The translations under genes and the position numbers were made by a program. 64,000 nucleotides of DNA from the human T2T-CHM13v2.0 reference genome, Homo sapiens. Shown in pieces: positions 5,751-60,121 of this stretch (its first letter is position 1; each line of letters begins with the position of its first letter). The stretch lies in NCBI RefSeq assembly GCF_009914755.1, contig NC_060926.1. One strand, written 5' to 3'. Below the pieces are notes generated by a model, which worked only from the letters and a program-made list of their open reading frames with translations, was not told the DNA's origin and made no database searches.

Positions 5751-6392
5751 GCAACTCTAAGAAATCCTTTCACTCAAGAAGGGGCAAAAATTGGTCTTAA
5801 GAAGCTTCCTGTGATTTCTACTGCCAAGTAACATTGCATAAGGCTCATTTGCAGAACCAAAATGAAAGAAGGCTCAAAGATTTTTTATAGACATGTAAAT
5901 CAAATTTAAGATTAATATCTTTTAGGAAGAGCCTCCTAACAAGGCTGTAATGAATGTTTACAAAAAATGTAAAAAAATGCCTATTTATAAAAAGAACACT
6001 AGCTTTACGGCAATTTCTAAAAAGTGTGTTTGGAAAAATCCCAAAACCAAATTTATCAGACAGATTGCTTATATGCTAAGAGAATTTGTACAATAATGTT
6101 ATATAATACAGAATATGGCAAAGCTTTATTTTTATTTTTAGTTAGAGAACAGTAAAGAAAAACAAAAGCCCAATAACAAACACTAGATGAAACCAACAAC
6201 TTATTGAAAAAGACAAGTTTACCTATTCAGTGCCTTCAGTTTTCTATTTCTGAACACACTTATTACTCTGAATCCATAAATGGCAGGTGGAGAATAAAAG
6301 GAAAAAGAAGAAAATCTACTCTATGCCTGGCATTTTGTGTAACACTTTAAACGTACTTTCTTGTTTCATTGTAAGGTTAAAGATATATTTTG

Positions 6393-7105
6393 TGTCTTAG
6401 TCCATTTGTGTTGCTATAAAGGAATACCCAAAGCTGAGTAATTTATAAATAGAGGTTTATTTGGCTTATGGTTCTGCAGTCTATACAAGAAGCATGGCAC
6501 CAGCATTTCTTCTGGTGAGGGCCTCAGGCTGCTTCCACTCATGGCAGAAAGCGAAAAAGAGCTGGTGTATACAGAGTTCACATAGAGAGAAAAAGAAAAA
6601 GAGCTGCTAGGGAAGTACCAGAATCTTGGCAGGGTCTCACTCTATCCCCTAGGCTGGAGTCCAATGGTGTGTTCTCAGCTCACTGCAACCTCCACCTCCC
6701 AGGTTCAAGCAATTCCCCTGCCTCAGCCTCCTGAGTAGCTGGGACTACAGGAGTGGGTCACCAGGCCTGGCTAATTTTTAGTAGAGACGGGGTTTCACCA
6801 TGTTGGCCAGGCTGGTCTCGAACTGCTGACCTCAAGTGATCCACATGCCTCTGCCTCCCAAAGTGCTGGGATGACAGGTGTGAGCCACTGTGCCCAGCTG
6901 GAAGTACCAGACTCTTAACCAGCTTTTCAGAGATCTAATAGAGCAAGAAGAACTCACTCATTATCGCTAAGACAAGGACAGCACCTAGCCATTCATGACG
7001 GATCCACCCCCATGACTCAAGCATCTCCCATTGGGCTCCATTTCCAACCCTGGGAATCAAATTTCAACATGAGATTTGGAGGGGTCAAATATTCAAACCA
7101 TCGCA
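6393..7105 (-). mobile_element. MST-family MaLR solo LTR (MSTC/MSTB-like), split by an Alu
   Basis: Starts 'tgtcttagtccatttgtgttgctataaaggaatac', ends 'caaatttcaacatgagatttggaggggtcaaatattcaaaccatcgca'. Confidence 0.85.
6628..6899 (-). mobile_element. AluS (Sx/Sz-like), without poly(A) tail
   Basis: Alu dimer; TSD ggaagtaccaga[a/c]tctt at 6611-6627 and 6900-6916. Confidence 0.95.
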
Positions 7106-10206: not shown

Positions 10207-10443
10207 GGCCGGGGGTTGTGGCTCACACCTGTAATCCCAGCACTTTGGGAGGCCAAGGCAGGCAGATCATGAGGTCAAGAGATCGAGACCATCCTGGCCA
10301 ACATGGTGAAACTCCGCCTCTACTAAAAATACAAAAATTAGCTGGGTGTGGTGGCACATGCCTGTAGTCACAGCTACTCAGGAGGCTGAGGCAGGAGAAT
10401 CAGGCAACAGAGCAAGATTCCATCTCAAAAAAAAAAAAAAAAA
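10207..10443 (+). mobile_element. AluSc with an internal deletion in the right arm
   Basis: Sc diagnostic 'gaggtcaagagatcgagaccatcctggccaacatgg'; TSD aaaggtgatttaatc; 'ggagaatc' joined directly to 'aggcaacagagc'. Confidence 0.95.
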
Positions 10444-16401: not shown

Positions 16402-17399
16402 AGAAAACTATATTCTGTATCACTGAAACCAGCATCCTCAGATGGATGTCTAGATTGGTTAATGTCAGGCATTCTGCTGCAGGTGCTATCTTTCACTATC
16501 AGATTAGATGCTAAAACCATTGCACACAAAACCCAGATAATTTATAAAGTTGAACTTTTCTATGATGTTGCTTGATACCATAAAACACAGTAGCACTATT
16601 TTCAGCTGCAAAATCTTTCTTACCTTAAAATATTTTTTGCAAGAATTCAAGTACAATAATAATACTAGCTGCCAAAAATTATTGAGCATCGCCTATGCAT
16701 TAATCATTATTCTTGATTCTTTACTTGTAATATTAGATTTAATGCTTACTACATCTGCATGTAGAATATTATTAGTATCTACATACTATTCACAAGGGAT
16801 CTTGCCTAGAAAAGCAAAGACCTTTACCCAAGGCCGTGCAGATAAAAAGGGATATACCCAATTTGGAATGAGGTTCTGTGTGACCACAGACATTTGCTCT
16901 AGAACGCTTGATTGTTTTTATCTCTTTACTATGGTGATATTAAACCTTGGGTGTTTGTTAGTCAACAAGAGAATATCACCAAAACACATACATGATTCCT
17001 CTATTTGTTCATTTCACGGTAACTACTAGCTTTTCACAGCATTTCATATGTGTTCAGAATGATGCTAAAGGCAAATTCAATTTTTAAAATAATTTATTTG
17101 GGGTGTTATTTAAACCAGTAAAAGGAATCAACTTAAAAAGGTATTCAGAAGTATTCAAAGTGATTATTAAAGCAGTTAATAAACATCCTTTCATAAAGCA
17201 ATAAAACAGCAGGAACCTGAGGATGCTGGCTATTCACTATCTAAGCTGAATTATCAAAGCAATAAATAAAAAGTTCTGCAATAAGCAACCTCAGCAAACA
17301 AGAAATTAAGCATTTTTAAAATAGAAATAAAGAATTCTATGACAAGAGATCAAGAAGAAAGAATAAAAACTGTGGAGCTCCAAATTCTATGCTCTTCCT

Positions 17400-17580
17400 C
17401 TGTTAACTAATCCATGTAATACTTCACAGGTAGGTAAATATTAATCTCCCCAATTTGTAGGTAAGAGAACTGTGAGATTCTGTGAAATCACGTTATTTGT
17501 TCAAACCTCCAGCTTAAGTCTGCTGATAGACCAGAATCTCAAGGCAAATACCACAAGATCACACAGTGACTAAGTTCATC
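17400..17580 (-). mobile_element. MIR
   Basis: 'gtaggtaaatattaatctccccaatttgtaggtaagagaactgtgag'. Confidence 0.65.
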
Positions 17581-17769
17581 CTTTGTGTGAACAGATAATA
17601 TGAACCGAATTTTCACGGGGATTGAAATAAGTAACACAATTTTACATACATGCATACATATATACACACACATATACACAAAATCTAATTCTTAAGCATC
17701 TCAATGGGTACTACTGATATAACTGAATACATTTTTAAGAGATTTTGTGTAACTGACTTCTTCCTGTTA

Positions 17770-17802
17770 GAGAGAGGGGGGAGGAGAGAGAGAGAGAGAG
17801 AG
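17770..17802. repeat. (GA)n microsatellite
   Basis: Read directly from the sequence. Confidence 0.9.
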
Positions 17803-19139
17803 ATTGATTTAGGTGGATAAAAATAAAATGACTTGAATAAAAAACTGCTAATTATTGAAAGAACTAGAACACAGGTTTTTTATTCCTTGTCCAGAACTCC
17901 TAATTTTTTTTTCATTTGCAAGGTATCTTCAAGTTCTCATCAACTCTGTCACCAGGTCTTTATCTTCGAAATACTCTTCAGAGATTAACTAATTTCATCA
18001 GAAAAAATTGCAAAGTAATATAATATTTTGCTTTTGTACAAATATTTCAGTTTAGCAGTAACACATTTCCTCTAAATGCAAGTAAAACTCTCAATGGCAC
18101 AATATGTTTTGTTAATTTAGAAAAAATTTTCTACTTATTAGTTGGTTGTCATTGGACCAAAGGAAAACAAAAACAACAACAACAACAACAAAAATCCATC
18201 AGCACAGATCTTTGCTAATGATTTGAAAGCCTCTTGATGATATGAACACTCTGCAATTTAGGTTCATACGAAGAACGAAATGCACTGATAAATAAATAAT
18301 GGATAATAACACAGAAAATAAACTCAAGAGTTTAAAAATCATTTAATTGATTTAAAATATTCATATTGACTAGATTCCTCCATGTCCAAACATGGCATTA
18401 GTATAGAGACAAGGACACCATATCCAACTCATGTTCTATAGTTACTTTCAATCCTGCGGAAATCTTTGTCAAGAGCCTACTATGTGCTAGTATCCTTGGA
18501 AGCTTCCTTATATTTCATATTCAAAAAGAGGTAAAAGTAGAGAAAACCATATTTTGTTCACCAAGTTTCCTGAAACCTATAATTAAAAGAATGAAAATAA
18601 ATGGTAGCTTTCAGAAATCTTTGAGTATTCACCAAGTTGACTGTCCTCTTGTGATGGCATCACAAAGGGTGCTGATGAGCAGGTCTAAAGGAACAGAAAA
18701 GGTCTGGTAGATGCAATGACTGAGTAGTAGAGATAGAGACAGGGTTTGAAGAATGAATCAGGAATATGTAGTTGTGCAGACAAGAGGTTAGTTAACAAAT
18801 TGACAAATTGTTTTATGTCATGTCCATAGAAGTCAGGTTGTGTCCTGAGGGCACAGATCCAAGAGAAAAAAGAAAATGAAGACTTCAGCTATAAAAGATA
18901 AAAGTAGGTAGATTTGGTTTCTAGGCATTAGGTTGTCATTTTCATTTTTAAAATATTTTCCTTGACTATGACTACACATGAGACATAGATGACCAAAAGA
19001 AAACAAAGATTCAACTTGATTACAATCCCAGTTTGGAACAAATGAAACAATGCTCAATTATCTCATATTGGGTATGCACAATAATTTGAAGTTAGTAATG
19101 AACTCTTATACACTCTTATTTCTGAGTGTTATTACACAT

Positions 19140-19380
19140 GAGGAGTACTGAAGTTAATAGGTTGATCTCCAGACCCATTCAAGTCACAGCTGAGCTGCTT
19201 AGTAACACAGGATTTAGAGAGTTATATAACTTCTCTGAACATCACTTTCTGATTTCCAGCGTTGAAATCTCATTGGATTGCTATAAATATTAATGGGGAA
19301 AATTCAGATAAAATACAGAGCCATATAAAGCTGATAGTGAAAGCTTAATAAAAATTTAGCTCTTACTATAATTAAAATTA
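19140..19380 (+). mobile_element. MIR
   Basis: 'ttcaagtcacagctgagctgcttagtaac...agttatataacttctctgaacatcactttc'. Confidence 0.6.
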
Positions 19381-19579
19381 ATCAGTAATTGATAACGTTT
19401 ACAAGTTTGGGTTGGATTTTTTTGGACAAGACTCCAGATCCATGGAATAAATAGACAAATAATGGTTAATAAACAAGAAGAGTTTTTGATTGCATCTTTA
19501 AACAGTAACTTATAATAATTTCTCCAGGTAACTATCTACAACATAACTCATGACCCTGTTTATACCTATCAGTTTATTT

Positions 19580-19840
19580 AAAAAGTGACACAGCATAATG
19601 AAAATAGCAATTGTCTTTCTTGAAAACTGATGTACCTGAATTGGAACCCTAATCTCCTGCTACCTTAATAGTTTGACTTAATTTCTTATATCATCAGTTT
19701 TGTCAACTGCAAAATGTCAGTTACAATAATTCCTACTTAAAAGAGTCATTGTAAGGATTATGCTAGATGAAATAAATTAATATTTTCAGGAACACTTAAA
19801 ACAGCACCTGTTACATAGTGTTAATGTAAGTGGTTTTCAA
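19580..19840 (+). mobile_element. MIR
   Basis: 'tcagttttgtcaactgcaaaatg...cctacttaaaagagtcattgtaaggatta...cacttaaaacagcacctgttacatag'. Confidence 0.7.
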
Positions 19841-19930
19841 GTGAATTATGCCAACACTATTCTTACATAGATCTTATTCAAGAGAGAGAGCAAAAGCAGG
19901 AATTAGAGAGAGCAAGGCAAAACATGCAAG

Positions 19931-19939
19931 TGCACGCAC

Positions 19940-19970
<31 letters not shown>
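19931..19970. repeat. (CA)n microsatellite
   Basis: Read directly from the sequence. Confidence 0.95.
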
Positions 19971-20660
19971 GAGAATCACAATTCAGGAAACAGGACGCTA
20001 TTGTATCATTTAGATGTGTTATTAGTTTTTAAACTTCTCATGTTATTTATTGTTAAAAGGCTTTTGAGTAGGCAATATCTCTGCTAAATTACAATCACAA
20101 TAATTATGTTATTTCTTTCAAATAACAACTGATAAGTTCTCTTTTAAAAAGTGTTAAGGATAATCACAGTTAAGTCTAAGATGATGAACATCTTAGGTCA
20201 ATCAATGCTATCAATACCTTAAGATTCCTGCTTCTATTGTTTAGGATGGCAAAGATAACAGCTAAGTGGTTGCACTATTAAAATTGTAGAGTTTAGGGAC
20301 ACTGCAATTCCATTCCTCTTTGCTAGGTAGACAAAATTCAACTACAACAATTCACTTTATTAGATTCAGAATATTGAACTCAATATTCAAAACCATCTAA
20401 TATAGGGCCACAGAATTAACTATGTCTTCTCTTACAAGATCACTTAGAATTCAAATAGTAGAATAATAACAAAAATCAGAGTTAGAAAAATAACTACTTT
20501 AATATAACTGTGTATCTGGCTTGCATGGTTAGTTGTGTACAGCACAATTTTGGGGCTGTGCCTATCCTTAATTTTAGAGAAGCTTGTGATTTTCTTCAAG
20601 TAATTTTAAAGTTCAGGGAATAAACCATTTTAAGTTAGCATTTTTTTCCTCTCTACTTAC

Positions 20661-20729
20661 CTTCATGACCTAATTTAAATTCAAAATTTACTGAGGCATA
20701 CAAGAAGAGCTGTTATTTTGCATATGGGA
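20661..20729 (-). other. Candidate 69-nt non-coding or poison exon inside the inverted-repeat loop
   Basis: Acceptor ccatttcattttccag|TCCC, donor GAAG|gtaagt; stop codons in all three frames. Confidence 0.3.
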
Positions 20730-20932
20730 CTGGAAAATGAAATGGCCGTATCCCTGTTGTATGAGAAAATGAGATAAATCCAAGTTGCTTTGCATTCATA
20801 AAGTAGCAATGAGCTAAAAATCTCACAGCCAGATTCACACAGACACATTTATGCAAAAAAGTTTAAACCACATTCTACAGTAAGAAGCCACTTTGGGGAA
20901 TATTTTTTATCTATTCACCATTTTTTCAACAG

Positions 20933-20997
20933 TCTCTCTCCCTCCCTCCTTCTCTCTCTCTCTCTCCCATCCTTCTCATTCACTCTCTTTTCTTTTT
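20933..20997. repeat. (CT)-rich polypyrimidine tract
   Basis: Read directly from the sequence. Confidence 0.85.
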
Positions 20998-22176
20998 AAA
21001 ATTCCCATGACAGTTTCTAATGTTCACCTTAGACTTAACTGTGATTATCCTTAACAATTTTTAAAAGAGAACTTATCAGTTGTTATTTAAGAGAAATAAT
21101 ATAATTATTGTGATTGTAATTTAGCAGAGATATTACCTACTCAAAAGCCTTTTAACAATAAACAAAATGAGAAGTTTAAAAACTAATAACACATGTAAAT
21201 GATACACTGAGACAATATTCTGGCCAAAATATACCCCAGATTTATTACAGAAAACAAAAACAGCTTAGGGATCTGCTCTACATTTCCAGCAATTGAAAAA
21301 GAAGAGAAAAACAAGAAGAAACAGCAACAAACTGTTTACTGGATATGGGTCATGAGGGTATATGCAAACTAACAGCCTATTGCCTTCATCAGCTTCGCAA
21401 CCTTACCAAAGCTTTGGAAGGTATCAGAGCATATTCTTGGTACATATTATTCTCTCCTGCAAGACCTTGCTAAATCTCTACTTACCCTATGTGATTTAAA
21501 CATTCCACAGGAGTGGCAACATCCATACATTAATATGATTGCTTTTCTATATAAGCATGTCACTATTAAACCAGCATAATGGAGGTAAATGTGTTACATT
21601 ACTTTTCATTATTGGATTTAGTTGTGTTGGAAAATTCTTATTCTTTTATCCAGATTTTTTCTGAGTAAAAGCTTACATATTTGAGACAATAAATTGCAAC
21701 AGATACTTCTATAATCTATAGCTATGAAAAAGAATGTAAATTGTACATAAATCTCACCCTAATATTAATTTCATTCATATAATATTGAAAGCAGAAGTAG
21801 GATAATGCATCCAAAATTTAGGCCACTCTGGTAACATATTCTAATATTGCTTTTTCTTTTATATAGTCTGCAAATTTTGTTGACATGTCTTAGAGAATTC
21901 CACATAAAAATGTGGAAGGGAAAGCCACATTCCCAACAAATCCCTTCCAAAACTCTGATGAAAAGATACCTTTCTGACAAGATGCACTAAAAATTACATC
22001 ATGTAATTAGCATTTATGACTCACATGCACATCAATAATCTTCATCATTATGTTATATTTGGAGCATATCACCATTTACAAAGTTTTTATTATTCATTAA
22101 AACTTCACAAGGTGCCAGGCAGATCCAGTTAATCAATGAGTCATATAAATATATCTCCCCACCAACCCATACAGAG

Positions 22177-22207
22177 GTGCATGCGTGCGTGCATGTGTGC
22201 ACACACG

Positions 22208-22249
<42 letters not shown>

Positions 22250-22250
22250 C
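22177..22250. repeat. Compound (TG/CG)/(CA)n alternating purine-pyrimidine microsatellite
   Basis: Read directly from the sequence. Confidence 0.95.
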
Positions 22251-23582
22251 TCTTTGCTTCCTCTCTACTCTCACTGCTAATGCAGTATCTTTCTTTCCTT
22301 GGTCAATAAACTTCCAAATGATAGCTGGTTTCCAGATGTTCTCTGGTTAGCTCCTCCTCTACACTGCTACCTATATTAGTTCTCTAGAAGACAGTTTTAT
22401 AAAGATATTCTTAGTGATTCTTCTTTGGTTAAAAGACAAATCTCAATTTCTGAACAGATGAGACTTGCAAGAGTCTCTAACGACCTCCAAACTTGCTATT
22501 CGCATCTCCTGCTTCCCCTTCTCCATTCATGTGCTGGTTGCTCCAGCTAAAAGCAAACTGCTTACTATTGCCCATATTCTTTACTATTCCCACTCTTTTG
22601 GACCTGCAATGTTTAGCAGACATTATGCCATCACCCTAGAGTGATTTTTCTCATGAAAACTTACTAGGTATTACTTTTCTAGCTTATCCATAACCTTGTC
22701 TAGAGATACATGTATAAGAAAATTTCTGAGGTTTCTTTCTGAGACTCCTGGTGGAGTAAGTTGTCCCCATAAGAAGTCAAATTTTATTTGTTTTCAATTT
22801 TATACCATATTTTATATTATAGCATGACCAAATACATACTTGAGACTCCTGTCAAAAATGTAGATTTGTGGAAAGGACAGTTAATTTCCTAAGCTATAGC
22901 TACATTGACTGCTTCTGATCAGGGTGCATAATATCTATTATAAATGACATACAAAATACCATTCTTTATTCACATTTGCATTTGTTTATTCTAACATTGA
23001 GAAGAGCAATTTTACCTTCTCTTTCAAATTTTGAATGCTTTAATCTTTAATGACTTCACTAGCTGGGATTTGGTAAAAGAACAGGTTGAAAATGAGGTTT
23101 CACAAAGAACTCGTCTTTGAAAATCTTTCTGAATCTTTAATAAACTCTCAAGGTTGTTGAAAATGACCTCAGGGTCGTAAAATATTATTAGGCTTTACAA
23201 CTGCATATCTTGGGTGGGAACTAGTTGGCCAGAGCTTGGAGGGGAGATAAGTGGTTCCGTTAAATTCTCTTCTGTATAATACCTGGTGCTGCAGGGGAAC
23301 CCTGTGGGTATCTAGTAAGTATTATTTCAAGATAATGAATATATAAGGAAGCACTATGGCAGGCAAAATTTGTAATCTTACTTTGTTCTCATCCTATGTC
23401 ACAGAGAGTTCTGAGCAGCACAGTGAAACTGCTGCTTGACTGCAATGCTAGGGAAAATTCACTCAAGCATGTTCTTAGGGGTCAATTTTTAAACTATAAA
23501 ATGAAGTGTGATCAACTTTTTCAATGGCCTGTTTTTTAAAGTCCATTTGCTGTAATGATCATTGCTTAATGTTGTCTCTGTC

Positions 23583-23750
23583 TTTTCTGCTCAAAGCTTA
23601 ATTCATGGTCTGGCGGCTTTACCAACATCACCTGAGAATTCATTAGAAATCCAGAGTTTCAGATCCCACATCAGATATACTGTAGTAAAATCTGCATTTT
23701 AACAGGATCTTCAGTTGACTAAACACAGCTTAAAGTTTGAGAGGCACTAA
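23583..23750. mobile_element. MER5A (hAT-Charlie MITE)
   Basis: 'catcacctgagaattcattagaaatccagagtttcag...aatctgcattttaacaggatc...aaagtttgagaggcact'. Confidence 0.85.
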
Positions 23751-24153
23751 GCCATCAAGGAGCATAATTTTCTGGATTCTATTAGTTCGATACAACCTAA
23801 GACAATAAGACTTAGAATGTAAAATTAAAATATTATTCATTCATAACACACTAAGAAAGAAAATGTTTGCTGCCTATTTCTAGAGTGTTTTTGACCACCA
23901 AATCATATTTATCTTCATAGTCTCCTCTAATGAGTCGAGCAATTTTATATGTAGCACTTTTGATCCCATTTTGTACTTTGTATTTTAGTTATGTATGTGC
24001 AAGCTTCATTTATTAAGGAGTTATTTGAAATAATTGGATATAGGAACTTATTTTATACTTCATAGGACCTGGAAAACAAGCTTCCCAACATTCAGAAATT
24101 ATTATTATTCCATAGCATAGATCAATTCTTCACTGAAAAATAAATATTAGTTT

Positions 24154-26012
24154 AAAAACTATTTTTAAAACTATTTAAAAATTCATAAGGAACCAAAAAG
24201 TGTCTGAATAGCCAAGTAAATCCTAAGCAAAAAGGACAAAGCTGGAGGCATCACATTTTCTGACTTCAAACTACACTACAAGGCTCCAGTAACCAAAACA
24301 GCACGGTACTGGTACAAAAACAGGCATATAGACCAATGAAACAGAATAGAGAGTCCAGAAATAAGGTCAAACACCTACAACCATCTGATCTTTGACAAAG
24401 CTGACAAAAACAAGGATTGGGGAAAAGACTCCCTATTCAATAAATGCTGCTGGAATAATTGGCTAGCCATATACAGAAGAATGAATTTGGACCCTTTCTT
24501 TACACCATGTACAAAAATTAACTCAAGATGAATTAAAGACTTAAATGTAAAACCTGAAACTATAAGGCTGGGTGCTGTGGCTCACGCCTGTAATCCCAGC
24601 TCTTTGGGAGGCCGAGGCAGGTGGATCACAAGGTCAGGAGATGGAGACCATCCTGGCTTACACGGTGAAACCCTGTCTCTACTAAAAATACAAAAATTAG
24701 CTGAGCGTGGCTGCGTGCGCCAGTAGTCCCAGGTACTCGGGAGGCTGAGGCAGGAGAATCGCGTGAACCCAGGAGGCGGAGCTTGCAGTGAGAGGAGATC
24801 ACTGCCACTGCACTCCAGCCTGGGCGACAGAGTGACACTCCGTCTCAAAAAACAAGCAAACAAACAAAAAAAACCCCTGAAACTATAAAAACCATGAAAG
24901 ACAACCTAGGCAATACCATCCTGGACATAGGAAAAGGCAAAGATTTCATGACAAAAACACCAAAAGCAACCACAAAAAAAGCAAAAATTGACAAGTCGGA
25001 TCTAATTAAGCTTAAGAGCTTCTGCACAGCAGAAGAAACTATCAACAAACAGAAAATCTACAGAATAGGAGAAAATATTTACAAACTGTGTAATATTATC
25101 TGACAAAGGTCTAATGTCCAGCATCTATAAAGAACTTAAATAAATTTACAAGAGGAAAACAGCCTCATTAAAAAGTGGGCAAAGAACATGAAGAGACAGT
25201 TTTCAAAAGAATACATTCATGTGGCCAACAAGCATATGAAAAAAACTCAACATCACTGATCACTAGAGAAATGCAAATCAAAACCACAATGAGATACTAT
25301 CTCACACCAGTCAGAATGGCCATTATTAAAAAGTCAAAAAATAACAGATGCTGGTAAGGTTGCTGAGTAAAGGGAACACTTATACACTGTTGGTGGGAGA
25401 CTAAATTAGTTCAACTACTGTGGAAGACACTGTGATAATTCCTCAGAGAGCTAAAAGCAGGGCTACCATTTAACCTAACAATCCCATTACTGGGTATATA
25501 CCCAGAGGAATATAAATCATTCTACCATAAAGACACATGAACACGGATGTTCACTGCAGCACTGTTTACAATAGCAAAGACATGGAATCAACTTAAATGC
25601 CCATCAGTGACAGATTGGATAAAGAAAATGTGGTATATATACACCATGGAATACTATACAGCCATAACAAATAACAAGATTATGTCTTTTGTGGGAACAT
25701 GAATGGAGCTGGAAGCTATTTTCCTTAGAAAACTAATGCAGAAACAGAAAAACAAATACCAAGTGTTCTCACTTATACTAGGAGCTAAATGATGAGAACT
25801 CATGAACACAAAAACGGAAACAACAGGCACTGTGGTCTACTTGAGGGCTGAGGGTGGGAGGAGGAAGAGAAGCAGAAAAGATAACTATTGGGTACCAGGC
25901 TTAATACTCGTTGACGAAATAATGTGTACAACGAACCCCCTTGACACAAGTTTACTTAAGTAAAAAACCTTTACATGTACTCCCAAACGTAAAATAAAAG
26001 CTAAAAAAAAGA
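24154..26012 (+). mobile_element. 5'-truncated L1 (L1PREC2/L1PA13-16-type) with an inserted AluY
   Basis: ORF2 C-terminal peptides ([10 protein letters not shown]..., [20 protein letters not shown]) and 3'UTR; TSD aaaaataaatattagttt at 24136-24153 and 26013-26030. Confidence 0.95.
24566..24873 (+). mobile_element. AluY-like
   Basis: 'gagaccatcctggcttacacggtgaaacc', 'gcggagcttgcagtg'; TSD cctgaaactataa. Confidence 0.95.
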
Positions 26013-27204: not shown

Positions 27205-28203
27205 ATTTCTCTGATGACCAGCGATGATGAGCATTTTTTCATGTGTCTGTTGGCTGCATACATGTCTTCTTTTGAAAAGTGTCTGTTCATGTCCTTTGCC
27301 CACTTTCTGATTGGGTTGTTTGATTTTTTCTTGTAAATTTGTTTAAGTTCTTTGTAGATTCTGGATATTAACCCTTTGTCACATGGGTATGTTACAAAAA
27401 TTGTCTCCCATTCTGTAGGTTGCCTGTTCACTCTGATGGTAGTTTCTTTTGCTATGTAGAAGCTTTTTAGTTTAATTAAATGTGCAAATCAAAACCACAA
27501 TGAGATACCATCTCACACCAGTTAGAATGGTGATCATTAAAAAGTCTGGAAACAGGTGCTGGAGAGAATGTGGAGAAATAGGAACGCTTTTACACTGTTG
27601 GTGGGACTGTAAACTAGTTCAACCATTGTGGAAGACAGTGTGACGATTCCTCAAGGATCTAGAACTAGAAATACCATTTGACCCAGCCATCCCATTACTG
27701 AGTATATACCCAAAGGATTATAAATCATGCTGCTATAAAGACACATGCACACGTATGTTTATTGCGGCACTATTCACAATAGCAAAGACTTGGAACCAAC
27801 CCAAATGTCCATCAATGGTAGACTGGATTAAGAAAATGTTGGCACATATACACCATGGAATACTATGCAGCCATAAAAAAGGATGAGTTCATGTCCTTTG
27901 TAGGGACATCGATGAAGCTGGAAACCATTCTGAGCAAACTATTGTGAGGACAGAAAACCAAACACTGTATGTTCTCATAGGTGGGAACTGAACAATGAGA
28001 ACACTTGGACACAGGGTGGGGAACATCACACACTGGGGCCTGTCATGGGGTAGGGGGATGGGGGAGGGATAGCATTAGGAGAAATACCTAATGTAAATGA
28101 CGAGTTAATGGGTGCAGCAAACCAACACGGCACATGTATACATATGTAACAAACCTGCACGTTGTGTACATGTACCCTAGAACTTAAAGTATAATAAAAA
28201 AAA
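27205..28203 (+). mobile_element. L1PA5-type 5'-truncated element with 5' inversion (27205-27481 minus, 27483-28203 plus)
   Basis: Minus [11 protein letters not shown]...SSSLVIRE continues as plus-strand 'tgcaaatcaaaaccacaatgagatacc'; L1PA 3'UTR; TSD approximately aaaat(t)tagatt. Confidence 0.95.
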
Positions 28204-29420: not shown

Positions 29421-29464
<44 letters not shown>

Positions 29465-29545
29465 ATCTATCACCTATTTATTTATATCTATCTATCTATC
29501 TGGCTATGTATCTGTGTGACTATCTATCTATATATCTTTATCTCT
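29421..29545. repeat. (TATC)n / GATA tetranucleotide STR with degenerate tail
   Basis: 11 perfect TATC units at 29421-29464. Confidence 0.95.
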
Positions 29546-30233
29546 CTATCTCCCTGTCATTTATTATCTATTTACATAAGTATTTGTCAACATTATGGAA
29601 TTGATAAAGAAAAAACTAAAATTAATAATGAAATACTAAATACCAGATATTTTGCCTACAATAATATATTCTGTGTTTACTCAGTAATCCTTTGTAATGG
29701 GAATTACCCCAATTCATAGACGCTCATTGGAGAAAGTTGCCTAAAATTAGTTGTCTGACAAACACCAGAACTGTTATTTAAATTTAGGAATTTTTAATTC
29801 AAATGTTTGCATCCTTTCTGTCATATCATTCTGCTTCAAGGCCAGGAATTTGATGGAATCCTAAACTTAGGCAGGGACATGGTTTTATTTTTCACTTGAC
29901 AGCTTCTCCAAGCAGAGGTTATCACACCTTGCTATAAGACTTTTGGAGGACAAATGGGTCAGAAATGAATGAGACAGAAGAATTCTGGCTGTAGTCATGA
30001 TGGCATCTGAACCAAGTATACTCTTATTGGTACTCATGCCTTTCCCCTTGTTGTTGAGGCCACTTGTTTTCCATGATCTCACAGAGTATATGGCAGTCTA
30101 TATTGTTGTGTTCTTTGTTCCACACTCCCACCTCTACGTATGGTATAATGGTTATTAGCATTAATTGATTTTACTTCAGTTATTTCAGTGATAGATTTCA
30201 CTGTGGTGATTTACATGCTGATGGGATCATATA

Positions 30234-35536: not shown

Positions 35537-35834
<298 letters not shown>

Positions 35835-36654: not shown

Positions 36655-36971
<317 letters not shown>

Positions 36972-47012: not shown

Positions 47013-49311
47013 TGTATTAGTCCGTTTTCATGCTCCTGATAAAGACATTGCCGAGACTGGGCCCAAAAAGAGGTTTAATTGGACTTACAGTTCTACATGG
47101 CTGGGGAGGCCTCAGAATCATGGTGGCAGGTGAAAGGCACTTCTTACATGGTGGTAGCAAGAGAAAATGAGAAGAAAGCAAAAGCAGAAACCCCTGATCA
47201 ACCCATCAGATCTTCTGAGACTTATTCACTATCATGATAATGGCAGGGGAAAGACCAGTCCCCCCCATGATTCAATTACCTCCCCCTGGATCCCTCCCAC
47301 AACATGTGAGAATTCTGGGAGATACAACTAAAGTTGAGATTTGGTCAGAACACAGCCAAATCATATCATTACGCCCCTGGCCCCTCCAAATCTCATGTCC
47401 TCATATTTCAAAACCAACCATGTCTTCCCAATAGTCCCACAAAGTCTTAACTCACTTCAGCATTAACCCCAAAGTCCACAGTCCAAAGTCTCATCTGAGA
47501 CAAGGCAAGTCACTTCTGCCTATCAGCCTGGAAAATCAAAAGCAAGCTAGTTACTTCTTAGACACAATGGATGTATAGGCATTGGGTACAGCTATTCCAA
47601 ACGGGAGACAATGGCCAAAACAAAGGGGTTACAGGGACCATGCAGGTCCAAAATCCAGAGGAGTAGTCACACTTTAAAGCTCCAAAATGATCTCCCTTAA
47701 CTCCAGCTCTCAAATCCAGGTTTTGCTGATACAACAGGTAAGTTCCCATGGTCTTGGGCAGCTCTGCCCCTGTGGCTTTCCAGGATACAGCCTCCCCGCT
47801 GGCTGCTTTCATGGGCTGACATTGAGTGTCTGCAGTTTTTCCAGGTGCATGATTCAAACTTTTGGTGGATCTACTATTCTGGAGTCTGGAGGATAATAGC
47901 CCTCTTCTCACAGCTCCACTAGGCAGCACCCTACTAGGGACTCTCTGTGGGGGCTCCAGCCCCACGTTTCCCTTCTGCACAGCCCTAGCAGAGGTTCTCC
48001 ATAAGGCCCCCACTCCTAAAGCAAACTTTTGCCTGGGCATCCAGGCATTTCCATACATTTTCTGAAATCTACGTGGAGGTTAACAAACCCCAATTCTTGA
48101 CTTCTATGCACCCGCAGCCTCAACATCACATGAAAGCTGCCAAGGCTTGGGGCTTCCACCCTGTGAAGCCACAGCTTGAGCTGTACATTGGCCTCTTTCA
48201 GCCATGGCTGGAGCAGCTGGGACACAGGGCACCAAGTCCCTAGGCTGCAAACAGCATGGGGACCCTGGGCCCAGCCCACTAAACCACTTTTTCCTCCTGG
48301 GCCTCCAGGCCTGCAATGGGGCTCCTGGGCCATGGAGGTCCCTGACATGGCCTGGAGACATTTTCTCCGTGGTCTTGGAGATTAACATTAGGCTCCTTGC
48401 TACTTATGCAAATTTCTGCAGCTGGCTTTAATTTCTTCCCAGAAAATGGGTTTTTCTTTTCTATCACATAGCCAGACTGCAAATTTTCTGAACTTTTATG
48501 CTCTGTTTCCCTTTTGAAACTGAATGTCTTTAAAAGTACCCAAGTCACCTCTTGAATGCTTTGCTGCTTAGAAATTTCTTTTGCCAGATACCCTAAATCA
48601 TCTATCTCAAGTTCAAAGTTCTACAGATCTCTAGGGCAGGGGCAAAATGCCACCAGTCTCTTTGCTAACACATAACAAGAGTCACCTTTGCGCCAGTTTG
48701 GGAACTGGAGTTGGGAACAAGTTCCTCATCTCCGTCTGAGACCACCTCAGCCTGGATTTTATTGTCCATATGGCTATCAGCATTTTGGGCAAAGCCATTC
48801 CACAAGTCTGTAGAAAATTCCAAACTTTCCCACATTTTCCTGCCTTCTTCTGAGCCCTTCAAACTGTTCCAACCTCTGCCTGTTACCCAGTTCCAAAGTC
48901 ACTTCCACATTTTTGGGTATCTTTTCAGCAACGCCACACTCTACTGGTACCAATTTATTGTATTAGCCCATTTTCATGCTGCTGATAAAGACATAGCCGA
49001 GACCAGGAAGAAAAAGAAGTTTAATTGAAGGTACAGTGCTACATGACGGGGGAGGCCTCAGAAACATGGTGGGAGGTGAAAGGCACTTCTTACATGGCGA
49101 TGGCAAGAGAAAATGAGAAGGAAGCAAAAGCCAAAACCCCTGATAAATCTATTAGATCTTGTAAGACTTATTCACTATCAGGAGAATAGCACAGGGAAGA
49201 CCAGCCCCCATGATTCAATTACCTCCCCCTGGGTAATTCCCACAACATGTGGGAATGCTGGGAGATACAATTCAAGTTGAGATTTGGTGGGGATATGGCC
49301 AAACCATATCA
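47013..49311 (-). mobile_element. Full-length THE1A MaLR (3' LTR 47013-47368, internal 47369-48958, 5' LTR 48959-49311)
   Basis: Two direct LTRs, polypurine tract, THE1-int ORF remnants (MYGNAWMPRQKFA...), TSD aagat/aagaa. Confidence 0.95.
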
Positions 49312-51448: not shown

Positions 51449-51748
51449 CGCCGGGCGCAGTGGCTCATGCCGGTAATCCCAGCACTTTGGGAGGCCGATG
51501 CAGGCATGTCACCTGAGATCAGGAGTTCGAGACTAGCCTGACCAACATGGAGAAACCCCATCTCTACTAAAAATACAAAATTAGCTGGGCACGGTGGCGC
51601 ATGCCTGTAATCCCAGCTACTCGGGAGGTTGAGGCAGGAGAATCATTTGAAACCAGGAGCAGAGGGTGCAGTCAGCCAAGATTGCGCCATTGCACTCCAG
51701 CCCAGGCAACAAGAGCGAAACTCTGTCTTCAAAAAAAAAAAAAAAAAA
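51449..51748 (+). mobile_element. AluSp-like
   Basis: 'cctgaccaacatggagaaacccc'; TSD attataagat[c/t]ac. Confidence 0.95.
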
Positions 51749-55119: not shown

Positions 55120-55394
55120 TCAGCCTGCCACCCAGGCTGGAATGGGTTGCAGTGGCGTGATCTCAGCTCACTGCAACCTCTGTCTCCCCAGCTCGAGCAA
55201 CTCTTATGCCTCAGCCTCCTGAATAGCTGGGATTATAGTGCATGCCACGATGCCCGGCTAATTCTTGTTCTTTTACTACAAATGGGGTTTCACTATGTTG
55301 GCCAGGCTGATCTCGAGCTCCTGGCCTCAAGTGATCTGCCCACCTCAACCTCCCAAAGTTCTGGAATTACAGGCATGAGCCACTGTGCCTGGCC
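55119..55394 (-). mobile_element. AluJb-like
   Basis: Diverged dimer; 'ctcctggcctcaagtgatctgccc'. Confidence 0.9.

Positions 55395-59776: not shown

Positions 59777-60121
<345 letters not shown>

What the first reader, a model, noticed from the sequence alone, without database searches (positions are those of the whole stretch)
20002..21206. Near-perfect 179-bp inverted repeat of non-transposon sequence enclosing ~850 bp
Seen: 20002-20180 and 21028-21206 are reverse complements, ungapped, with 8 mismatches (95.5%), and extend with small gaps to about 20196/21017. I do not recognise the arms as Alu, L1, MIR, LTR or a transposon TIR, and they are far more similar to each other than the ends of the old MITEs in this window. 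Inference: a recent inverted duplication, or arms homogenised by gene conversion or selection. If transcribed it would form ~180 bp of dsRNA (ADAR or Dicer substrate, splicing clamp). In DNA it could allow recurrent inversion of the spacer by NAHR. Of the 8 mismatches, 2 are G-U on a plus transcript and 3 on a minus transcript, so there is no clear strand bias.
Basis: partly seen in the sequence, partly recalled or inferred. Interest (0 to 1): 0.85.

Follow-up and report, generated by a model that had tools for sequence, protein, structure and literature searches.

The report
Single-locus inverted duplication in NRXN1-DT intron
A stretch of about 190 bases of ordinary unique human DNA was copied once, in reverse orientation, about 840 bases away; it is real and not a transposon, but it looks like a neutral relic of an old replication or repair accident.

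Summary
Arms 20002-20184 and 21024-21206 are reverse complements over 183 ungapped bases with 9 mismatches (95.1%). The spacer is 839 bp, and a weak gapped extension reaches 20196/21017. Homology stops sharply; the flanks match no better than shuffles.

In the whole T2T genome each arm finds only itself and its partner (2 of 2 candidates). Two masked repeats of similar length gave 4232 and 5462 candidates, and the same search detected an old repeat at 72-82% identity nearby. I found no target-site duplication, no Pfam or Rfam match and no meaningful ORF.

My best reading is a single local inverted duplication of unique sequence. It arose by template switch or fold-back, or by a roughly 1-kb inversion with a staggered break, and has decayed neutrally since. 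The clock age is roughly 10-50 My, using recalled rates.

Ongoing gene conversion is unlikely. The arms are 5% diverged, mismatches are evenly spread, and the arms are AT-richer than their surroundings. NAHR is unlikely because the longest identical tract is 34 bp. A long RNA hairpin is predicted on both strands, but nothing shows it is used. Primate orthologues, Dfam, pangenome and editing data could not be checked here. This is an ordinary member of a catalogued class, of low interest.

The parts
20002..20184 (.). Left arm of the inverted repeat (ungapped core; weak gapped extension to 20196)
   Evidence: 183 nt, 174/183 identical to the reverse complement of 21024-21206. GC 25.1%, no CpG. 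Genome-wide it matches only itself and the right arm.
20185..21023 (.). Spacer, 839 bp of unique sequence
   Evidence: apart from the self-match, all 12 genome matches fall on spacer positions 730-813 (window 20914-20997, CT-rich low complexity). No Pfam match at E <= 0.01 in 10 of 10 scanned frames. No Rfam match.
21024..21206 (.). Right arm of the inverted repeat (ungapped core; weak gapped extension inward to 21017)
   Evidence: GC 24.0%, no CpG. Genome-wide it matches only itself and the left arm.
19933..19970 (+). (CA)19 microsatellite, 32 bp outside the left arm's outer end; possible fork-stalling or breakpoint context (inferred)
   Evidence: TRF; distances.
20933..20966 (+). (TC)17 array within a polypyrimidine tract that runs to about 20997; it ends 46 bp before position 21012, which I took as the right arm's inner boundary (the last aligned base of the gapped extension is 21017); possible breakpoint context (inferred)
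   Evidence: TRF; distances; sequence read.

Best explanation
This is a one-off local inverted duplication of about 190 bp of unique, AT-rich intronic DNA. One arm is the original and the other is a copy made in a single rearrangement. Two mechanisms fit. The first is a replicative template switch or fold-back: the nascent strand leaves its template, copies about 190 nt of the same strand 0.8 kb away in reverse, and returns. The second is a roughly 1-kb inversion whose break on one side was staggered and filled in, giving an inversion with a one-sided inverted duplication (dupINV/INVdup type). Both give the present structure arm-spacer-inverted arm. They differ only in whether the spacer is flipped relative to the ancestor, which needs an outgroup. 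Since the event the two arms have diverged neutrally to 4.9% (JC 5.1%). That puts the event at roughly 10-50 My, in primate ancestors. The structure has no shown function. It lies in an intron of the lncRNA NRXN1-DT, so a transcript through it could fold into a ~180-bp imperfect duplex and be a passive ADAR substrate. Shown: the structure, its uniqueness in the genome, the absence of transposon marks, the mismatch pattern and the predicted fold. Inferred: the mechanism, the age and neutrality.
For: The structure is real, with sharp ends. Each arm has exactly two copies in the 3.1-Gb genome, 2 of 2 first-look candidates. Two masked repeats of similar length gave 4232 and 5462 candidates. The same tool found an old repeat at 72-82% identity 2.4 kb away, accounting for 22 of 43 listed matches in a 7.2-kb query in which the arms hit only each other. 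The spacer is unique except for a CT-rich tract. I read no target-site duplication of 2-9 bp at the ends. The spacer has no Pfam domain (0 of 10 frames at E <= 0.01), there is no Rfam family in the repeat, and there are no ORFs of note. The mismatches look neutral: 6 transitions and 3 transversions, evenly spread (KS p = 0.98), with no CpG. Two of the four arm boundaries lie 32 and 46 bp from dinucleotide microsatellites, of which the window has only 6 (naive post-hoc P = 0.0013). That fits a break or fork stall at non-B DNA. Both mechanisms are documented: staggered-break inversions with inverted duplications of unique sequence at 17 of 29 Drosophila inversions (PMC1885836, abstract and passages), and the dupINV/INVdup classes of human complex variants (PMC5338099, passages).
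Against: No outgroup or population data could be consulted, so the age, the polarity (which arm is the copy), the spacer orientation and neutrality are all inferred. Dfam/RepeatMasker was not available. A very old or very low-copy repeat family would escape the pairwise genome search, which scores only the best candidates and skips common words (tool text). I found no clear junction microhomology, and the inner boundary is ragged. The microsatellite proximity is a post-hoc observation. The clock rates are recalled, and 9 mismatches give a wide interval: 9-47 My at 1.0-1.2e-9 per site per year, and 22-93 My at 0.5e-9.
Confidence: 0.7

Rival explanations
1. An older inverted repeat whose arms are kept alike by arm-to-arm gene conversion, as in sex-chromosome palindromes. 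On this reading, 95% identity understates its age.
For: The arms are only 839 bp apart, and conversion between close inverted arms is well known for large palindromes (PMC3723533 and PMC8981503, abstracts in the listing). Template switching between arms can also homogenise short inverted repeats (PMC8604942, abstract start in the listing).
Against: Converting palindromes hold more than 99% identity (same abstracts), whereas here it is 95.1%. The 9 mismatches are spread evenly with no conversion-tract-like clean block; the longest identical run is 34 bp (KS p = 0.98). GC-biased conversion should enrich GC, yet the arms are 24-25% GC against 33.6% in the spacer and 34.7% in the window. No decayed homology lies beyond the arms, as would be expected if a converted core sat inside an older, larger repeat.
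Confidence: 0.12
2. A relic of a low-copy DNA transposon or MITE with long terminal inverted repeats, whose other copies are lost or too decayed to find.
For: The layout, two ~190-bp terminal inverted arms around an ~840-bp core, is what a non-autonomous TIR element looks like. Dfam was not available, so family membership could not be tested directly.
Against: There are only two copies of the arm and one of the core in the genome, although the search finds repeats at 72-82% identity. I read no target-site duplication of 2-9 bp at the ends. There is no transposase remnant. The arm ends do not resemble the hAT, Tc1/mariner or piggyBac termini I know (recalled). Human DNA transposons are thought to have been inactive for about 37 My or more (recalled), which is at the old edge of the arm-divergence age.
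Confidence: 0.07
3. A functional element: a selected hairpin in the NRXN1-DT pre-RNA (an editing or dsRNA-sensing substrate, small-RNA source or splicing clamp), or an invertible DNA segment.
For: A near-complete arm-arm duplex is predicted in the MFE and centroid structures on both strands. Duplex energies are -249.6 and -256.0 kcal/mol. The site is intronic in NRXN1-DT on the plus strand (hub annotation). A survey argues that some expressed, stable intergenic inverted duplicates are functional (PMC5398296, abstract).
Against: There is no strand bias in G-U-compatible mismatches: 2 on plus and 4 on minus. Three of the 9 mismatches are transversions that break pairing on both strands. There is no Rfam match. 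The longest identical tract, 34 bp, is below the 50-250 bp homology quoted for recombination (PMC8755829, passages). In yeast, spacers above 1 kb and divergence sharply lower inverted-repeat activity in double-stranded DNA (PMC10164571, passages). No expression, editing or conservation data could be consulted.
Confidence: 0.08
4. An assembly artefact (a chimeric fold-back read).
For: None found. I considered it only because inverted duplications can arise from fold-back library artefacts (recalled).
Against: Fold-back artefacts give perfect, unspaced palindromes (recalled). Here there are 9 mismatches, indels at the inner ends and an 839-bp unique spacer.
Confidence: 0.02

Closest known systems
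Non-repetitive 'inverted duplicates' of mammalian genomes (IRF surveys: Warburton et al. 2004, recalled and not held; Chen et al. 2017, PMC5398296)
   Same: It fits the working definition of two reverse-complementary arms of 10-10,000 nt separated by 0-1,000 nt (PMC5398296, section 12). It lies in DNA that is unique genome-wide. With 183-nt arms it falls in that paper's longest arm class (36-10,000 nt; passages).
   Different: It is much longer than the typical member: the 80th percentile of arm length there is 36 nt. I did not see whether this locus is in their lists, because I did not consult the supplements.
Inversions with inverted duplication at a breakpoint: the staggered-break model (Ranz et al. 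2007, PMC1885836) and the dupINV/INVdup complex variants (Collins et al. 2017, PMC5338099)
   Same: An inverted duplication of ancestrally unique sequence brackets a segment, with no repeat family involved. That is the same present-day layout as here.
   Different: Those cases are kb- to Mb-scale and were shown by comparison with an ancestral arrangement. Here the segment is 0.8 kb and the ancestral orientation is unknown.
Short-range template-switch mutations and microinversions in great apes (PMC7954356, listing only; PMC8755829, passages)
   Same: A replication or repair event copies nearby sequence in reverse complement and creates or extends a hairpin-capable repeat.
   Different: The definite microinversions in PMC8755829 are 17-33 nt, with flanking repeats of 3-75 nt. 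This copy is about 190 nt and lies 0.8 kb from its source.
Large X/Y palindromes maintained by gene conversion
   Same: Two inverted arms of non-transposon sequence around a unique spacer.
   Different: Those have arm-to-arm identity above 99% and GC-biased conversion (abstracts); arms of many kb carrying testis genes are recalled. Here the arms are 183 nt, 95% identical, AT-rich and carry no gene.
Inverted Alu pairs
   Same: An intronic inverted pair able to form a long dsRNA. The window and the random sample hold several.
   Different: Alu-type arms have 53-57 copies even in my 264-kb sample, and the pairs are 85-88% alike. These arms have 2 copies and are 95% alike.

Membership tests
TIR DNA transposon / MITE | Multiple dispersed copies of the element or its termini in the genome | tested here: not met
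   The arm finds 2 of 2 candidates, itself and its partner. The core is unique. Controls work.
TIR DNA transposon / MITE | Target-site duplication flanking the terminal repeats | tested here: not met
   I read the flanks and found no direct repeat of 2-9 bp at the arm ends, also not after trimming the ends by two bases. The outer flanks align no better than shuffles.
TIR DNA transposon / MITE | Match to a curated family (Dfam) or a transposase remnant | tested here: inconclusive
   Pfam gave 0 of 10 spacer frames at E <= 0.01; 7 of the 17 listed frames, those over the arms and flanks, were not scanned. Dfam/RepeatMasker is not available.
Non-repetitive inverted duplicate (IRF-type definition) | Two reverse-complementary arms of 10-10,000 nt with a spacer of 0-1,000 nt | tested here: met
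   The arms are 183 nt and the spacer is 839 nt. The definition is in PMC5398296, section 12.
Non-repetitive inverted duplicate (IRF-type definition) | No overlap with annotated repeats | tested here: inconclusive
   The arms are unique by my genome search and are not among the hub's masked stretches. No RepeatMasker track was available.
Gene-conversion-maintained palindrome | Arm-to-arm identity above 99% with a GC-biased conversion signature | tested here: not met
   Identity is 95.1%. The arms are 24-25% GC against 34-35% around them.
Inversion with inverted duplication (staggered break / dupINV) | Spacer inverted relative to the ancestral arrangement, with one flank duplicated | not testable with these tools
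   This needs orthologous sequence from species that lack the duplication, and none is held. The only hint is that GA-rich 19881-19911 and CT-rich 20933-20963 would share a strand if the spacer were flipped (pairs I2/I3).
NAHR-competent inverted repeat (inversion substrate) | Enough uninterrupted homology (50-250 bp quoted in PMC8755829; catalogue threshold of 200 bp in PMC11794170) | tested here: not met
   The longest identical tract is 34 bp, and the ungapped arm is 183 bp. Thresholds come from passages.
Known structured RNA family (miRNA precursor and others) | Match to an Rfam covariance model | tested here: not met
   There is no match inside 20002-21206 at E <= 1. The two sub-threshold hits lie outside, at 21891-22055.

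The most novel reading that the evidence does not exclude
The repeat is not a decaying accident but a maintained hairpin. On this reading it is shared well beyond primates or kept alike by conversion or selection, and it acts in the NRXN1-DT pre-RNA as a long dsRNA. That dsRNA could be an ADAR or dsRNA-sensor substrate or a small-RNA source, or it could loop out about 0.8 kb of intron. It would be a rare non-Alu, unique-sequence long hairpin in a human brain-linked lncRNA locus.
Probability: 0.05. Interest if true: 0.55.

Novelty: new member of a known kind. Interest (0 to 1): 0.2.

Why it matters
As it stands it matters little. It is one clean example of how unique human DNA acquires a hairpin-capable inverted duplicate without any transposon, probably at a microsatellite-associated break or fork stall. 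It would be a tidy test case for telling template-switch insertion from inversion-with-duplication once primate T2T orthologues are aligned. Only if editing, small RNAs, conservation of pairing or an orientation polymorphism were found would it gain functional interest.

Tried and rejected
**Transposon reading: rejected as the best explanation.**
- Genome searches with each arm, with the spacer and with a 7.2-kb block gave no further copies.
- Positive controls worked.
- I found no target-site duplication, and the Pfam scan of 10 spacer frames was empty.

**Larger, older repeat with a converted core: rejected.**
- The flanks align at shuffle level.

**Known RNA family: none.**
- The Rfam scan found nothing in the repeat.

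**Coding potential: none.**
- No ORFs of note were found.

**Strand skew of the spacer as a sign of inversion: uninformative.**
- All values lie within about 1.5 sd of 811-bp tiles of the window.

**Rarity estimate by sampling the genome: too small to be useful.**
- I planned 2 Mb of random loci, but only 200 kb could be fetched.
- In 264 kb (200 kb plus the window) there are 6 inverted pairs with arms >= 100 bp, >= 85% identity and spacer <= 5 kb.
- Five of the 6 are high-copy, with 53-57 copies in the sample. Only this one is unique.
- The sample is too small to give a genome-wide rate.

**Sources that were closed or not held.**
- Warburton et al. 2004 is not held.

**Literature on this locus.**
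- A search for NRXN1-DT listed 6 of 7 papers, none about this repeat by title or abstract.
- The searches were about mechanisms and catalogues. None of the listed items names this locus.
- I did not consult any supplementary tables. A listing of this repeat in the IRF, inversion or repeat-pair catalogues (PMC5398296, PMC11794170) therefore remains possible.

Full report
**Observation**

The window holds an inverted repeat with arms 20002-20184 and 21024-21206. The arms are 183 nt, ungapped, 95% complementary and 839 nt apart. blastn (95.08% over 183) and a local alignment agree.

There are 9 mismatches. The inward extension to 20196/21017 adds only 7 matches across two small indels.

The outer boundary is sharp. 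The flanks beyond the arms align no better than shuffled sequence. For the inner flanks the score was 15.5 against a shuffle mean of 15.0, with 76 of 200 shuffles at least as high. For the outer flanks it was 16.5 against 16.4, with 92 of 200. The arm-arm match has E = 3.1e-76 in a search of the whole genome.

**Is it a repeat family?**

Searched against the 3.1-Gb assembly the window comes from, the left arm yields 2 first-look candidates and 2 matches, itself and the right arm (the latter at E <= 10). The right arm gives the mirror result. The spacer matches only itself. The exception is the CT-rich stretch 20914-20997, which draws 12 short low-complexity matches.

The tool warns that it scores only the best candidates and skips very common words, so I ran controls.
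- Two masked repeats of similar length, 47062-47240 and 6389-6553, gave 4232 and 5462 candidates (40 scored each), at 91-94% and 85-90% identity.
- A 7.2-kb query (17000-24200) picked up an old dispersed repeat at about 23619-23758. It accounted for 22 of 43 listed matches, at 72-82% identity. In the same query the arms again hit only each other (40 of 74 candidates scored).

So a family diverged to about 75% would have been seen. A much older or nearly extinct family would not, and Dfam was not available.

Other transposon and gene marks are also missing.
- I read no target-site duplication of 2-9 bp at the ends.
- Pfam found nothing in the spacer: 0 of 10 scanned stop-to-stop frames at E <= 0.01. 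The one weak hit was DUF3377 at E = 0.088, 13.2 bits against a cut-off of 26.5. I did not scan the 7 of 17 listed frames that lie over the arms and flanks.
- There is no Rfam match inside the repeat.
- The longest ATG ORF is 79 aa and runs through the (CA)n tract.

**Context**

The hub's table puts the site in an intron of the lncRNA NRXN1-DT on the plus strand. Of 13 inverted pairs in the window (>= 40 nt, within 5 kb), this is the longest and most similar. The other 12 are 78-90% complementary, and each has at least one arm in the hub's masked stretches.

In a sample of 264 kb (20 random 10-kb loci plus the window), 6 inverted pairs have arms >= 100 bp, >= 85% identity and spacer <= 5 kb. 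Five have 53-57 copies of the arm within the sample, which is Alu-like. Only this one has 2. Further sampling was not possible, so I cannot give a genome-wide rate.

**What the mismatches say**

- There are six transitions and three transversions, evenly spaced (KS p = 0.98).
- The longest identical run is 34 bp.
- Neither arm has a CpG.
- The arms are 25.1% and 24.0% GC, against 33.6% in the spacer and 34.7% in the window.

This is the pattern of two copies drifting apart. It is not the pattern of arms being homogenised. Converting palindromes stay above 99% identity and gain GC (abstracts of PMC3723533 and PMC8981503, listing).

The JC distance is 0.051. With recalled neutral rates of 1.0-1.2e-9 per site per year the event is about 21-25 My old (Poisson 95% interval 9-47 My). 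At 0.5e-9 it is about 51 My (22-93 My). These ages assume no conversion.

**Mechanism**

Two documented routes give arm-spacer-inverted arm from unique DNA.
- (a) A template switch or fold-back during replication or break repair copies nearby sequence in reverse. Related literature: PMC8755829 (passages) and PMC7954356 (listing only).
- (b) An inversion whose break on one side is staggered and filled in leaves an inverted duplication of unique sequence. This was proposed for 17 of 29 Drosophila inversions (PMC1885836, abstract and passages). It corresponds to the dupINV/INVdup classes of human complex variants (PMC5338099, passages).

The two routes differ only in the ancestral orientation of the spacer, which needs an outgroup.

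Two of the four arm boundaries sit next to dinucleotide arrays. (CA)19 ends 32 bp left of 20002. (TC)17, inside a polypyrimidine tract, ends 46 bp left of 21012. The window has only 6 such arrays, and the naive post-hoc probability is 0.0013. That fits a break or stalled fork at non-B DNA, but it is an inference.

There is one weak hint for route (b). The GA-rich 19881-19911 and the CT-rich 20933-20963 are 74% complementary (pairs I2/I3). They would lie on the same strand beside the (CA)n if the spacer were flipped. Strand skews of the spacer are uninformative.

**Consequences**

As RNA, both strands are predicted to pair the arms almost completely in the MFE and centroid structures (-408.4 and -436.7 kcal/mol for 1245 nt). 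The arm-arm duplexes are -249.6 and -256.0 kcal/mol. Such a duplex in an intron would be a plausible passive ADAR substrate (established knowledge, recalled). Nothing here shows that it forms or matters.

As DNA, recurrent NAHR is unlikely. The longest identical tract is 34 bp, against the 50-250 bp minimal homology quoted in PMC8755829. The arm is also below the 200-bp threshold used for recombination-substrate maps of T2T-CHM13 (PMC11794170, passages). In yeast, long spacers and divergence strongly reduce inverted-repeat fragility in duplex DNA, though less so in long single-stranded regions (PMC10164571, passages).

**Comparison and novelty**

The structure fits the working definition of a non-repetitive 'inverted duplicate': arms of 10-10,000 nt and a spacer of 0-1,000 nt (PMC5398296, section 12). 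It is at the long end of that class, where the 80th percentile of arm length is 36 nt.

Such elements have been surveyed genome-wide. Warburton et al. 2004 is recalled and not held. LIRBase requires arms above 400 nt and so would omit this one (PMC8728187, passages). I saw no paper naming this locus, and I did not consult supplementary tables.

**Verdict**

This is a real, unique-sequence inverted duplication and a new member of a known kind. It is most likely a neutral relic. Confidence is 0.7 for that reading, and interest is 0.2. The most novel reading still open is a maintained, functional hairpin, at about 5%.

Noticed in passing
window 23619-23758: An old dispersed repeat. It accounts for 22 of the 43 listed genome matches of the 7.2-kb query, at 72-82% identity over about 60-130 bp. 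The family is not named, because no Dfam is available.
   Followed up: partly
window 17769-17803, 19933-19970, 20933-20966, 22200-22247: Four of the window's six dinucleotide microsatellite arrays, (AG)18, (CA)19, (TC)17 and (CA)24, crowd into 4.5 kb around the inverted repeat. Two lie within 50 bp of arm boundaries.
   Followed up: partly
window 19881-19911 and 20933-20963: A GA-rich tract left of the repeat and a CT-rich tract inside the spacer are 74% complementary (pairs I2/I3). This is probably low-complexity chance, but they would share a strand if the spacer were inverted.
   Followed up: no
window 21891-21970 (-) and 21993-22055 (-): Sub-threshold Rfam hits: mir-1270 at 22.8 bits (gathering score 90, E = 0.14) and SNORD113 at 21.6 bits (gathering score 36, E = 0.65). 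Both are at chance level.
   Followed up: no
window 35537-35777 / 36698-36937; 6712-6888 / 10218-10400; 51450-51660 / 55265-55393; 55143-55394 / 59777-60028; 25098-25244 / 27234-27384: Inverted pairs of high-copy (Alu-like) repeats at 78-90% complementarity with spacers of 0.9-4.7 kb. These are ordinary potential dsRNA-forming pairs.
   Followed up: partly
window 29421-29574: A long (TATC)n microsatellite with about 34 copies.
   Followed up: no
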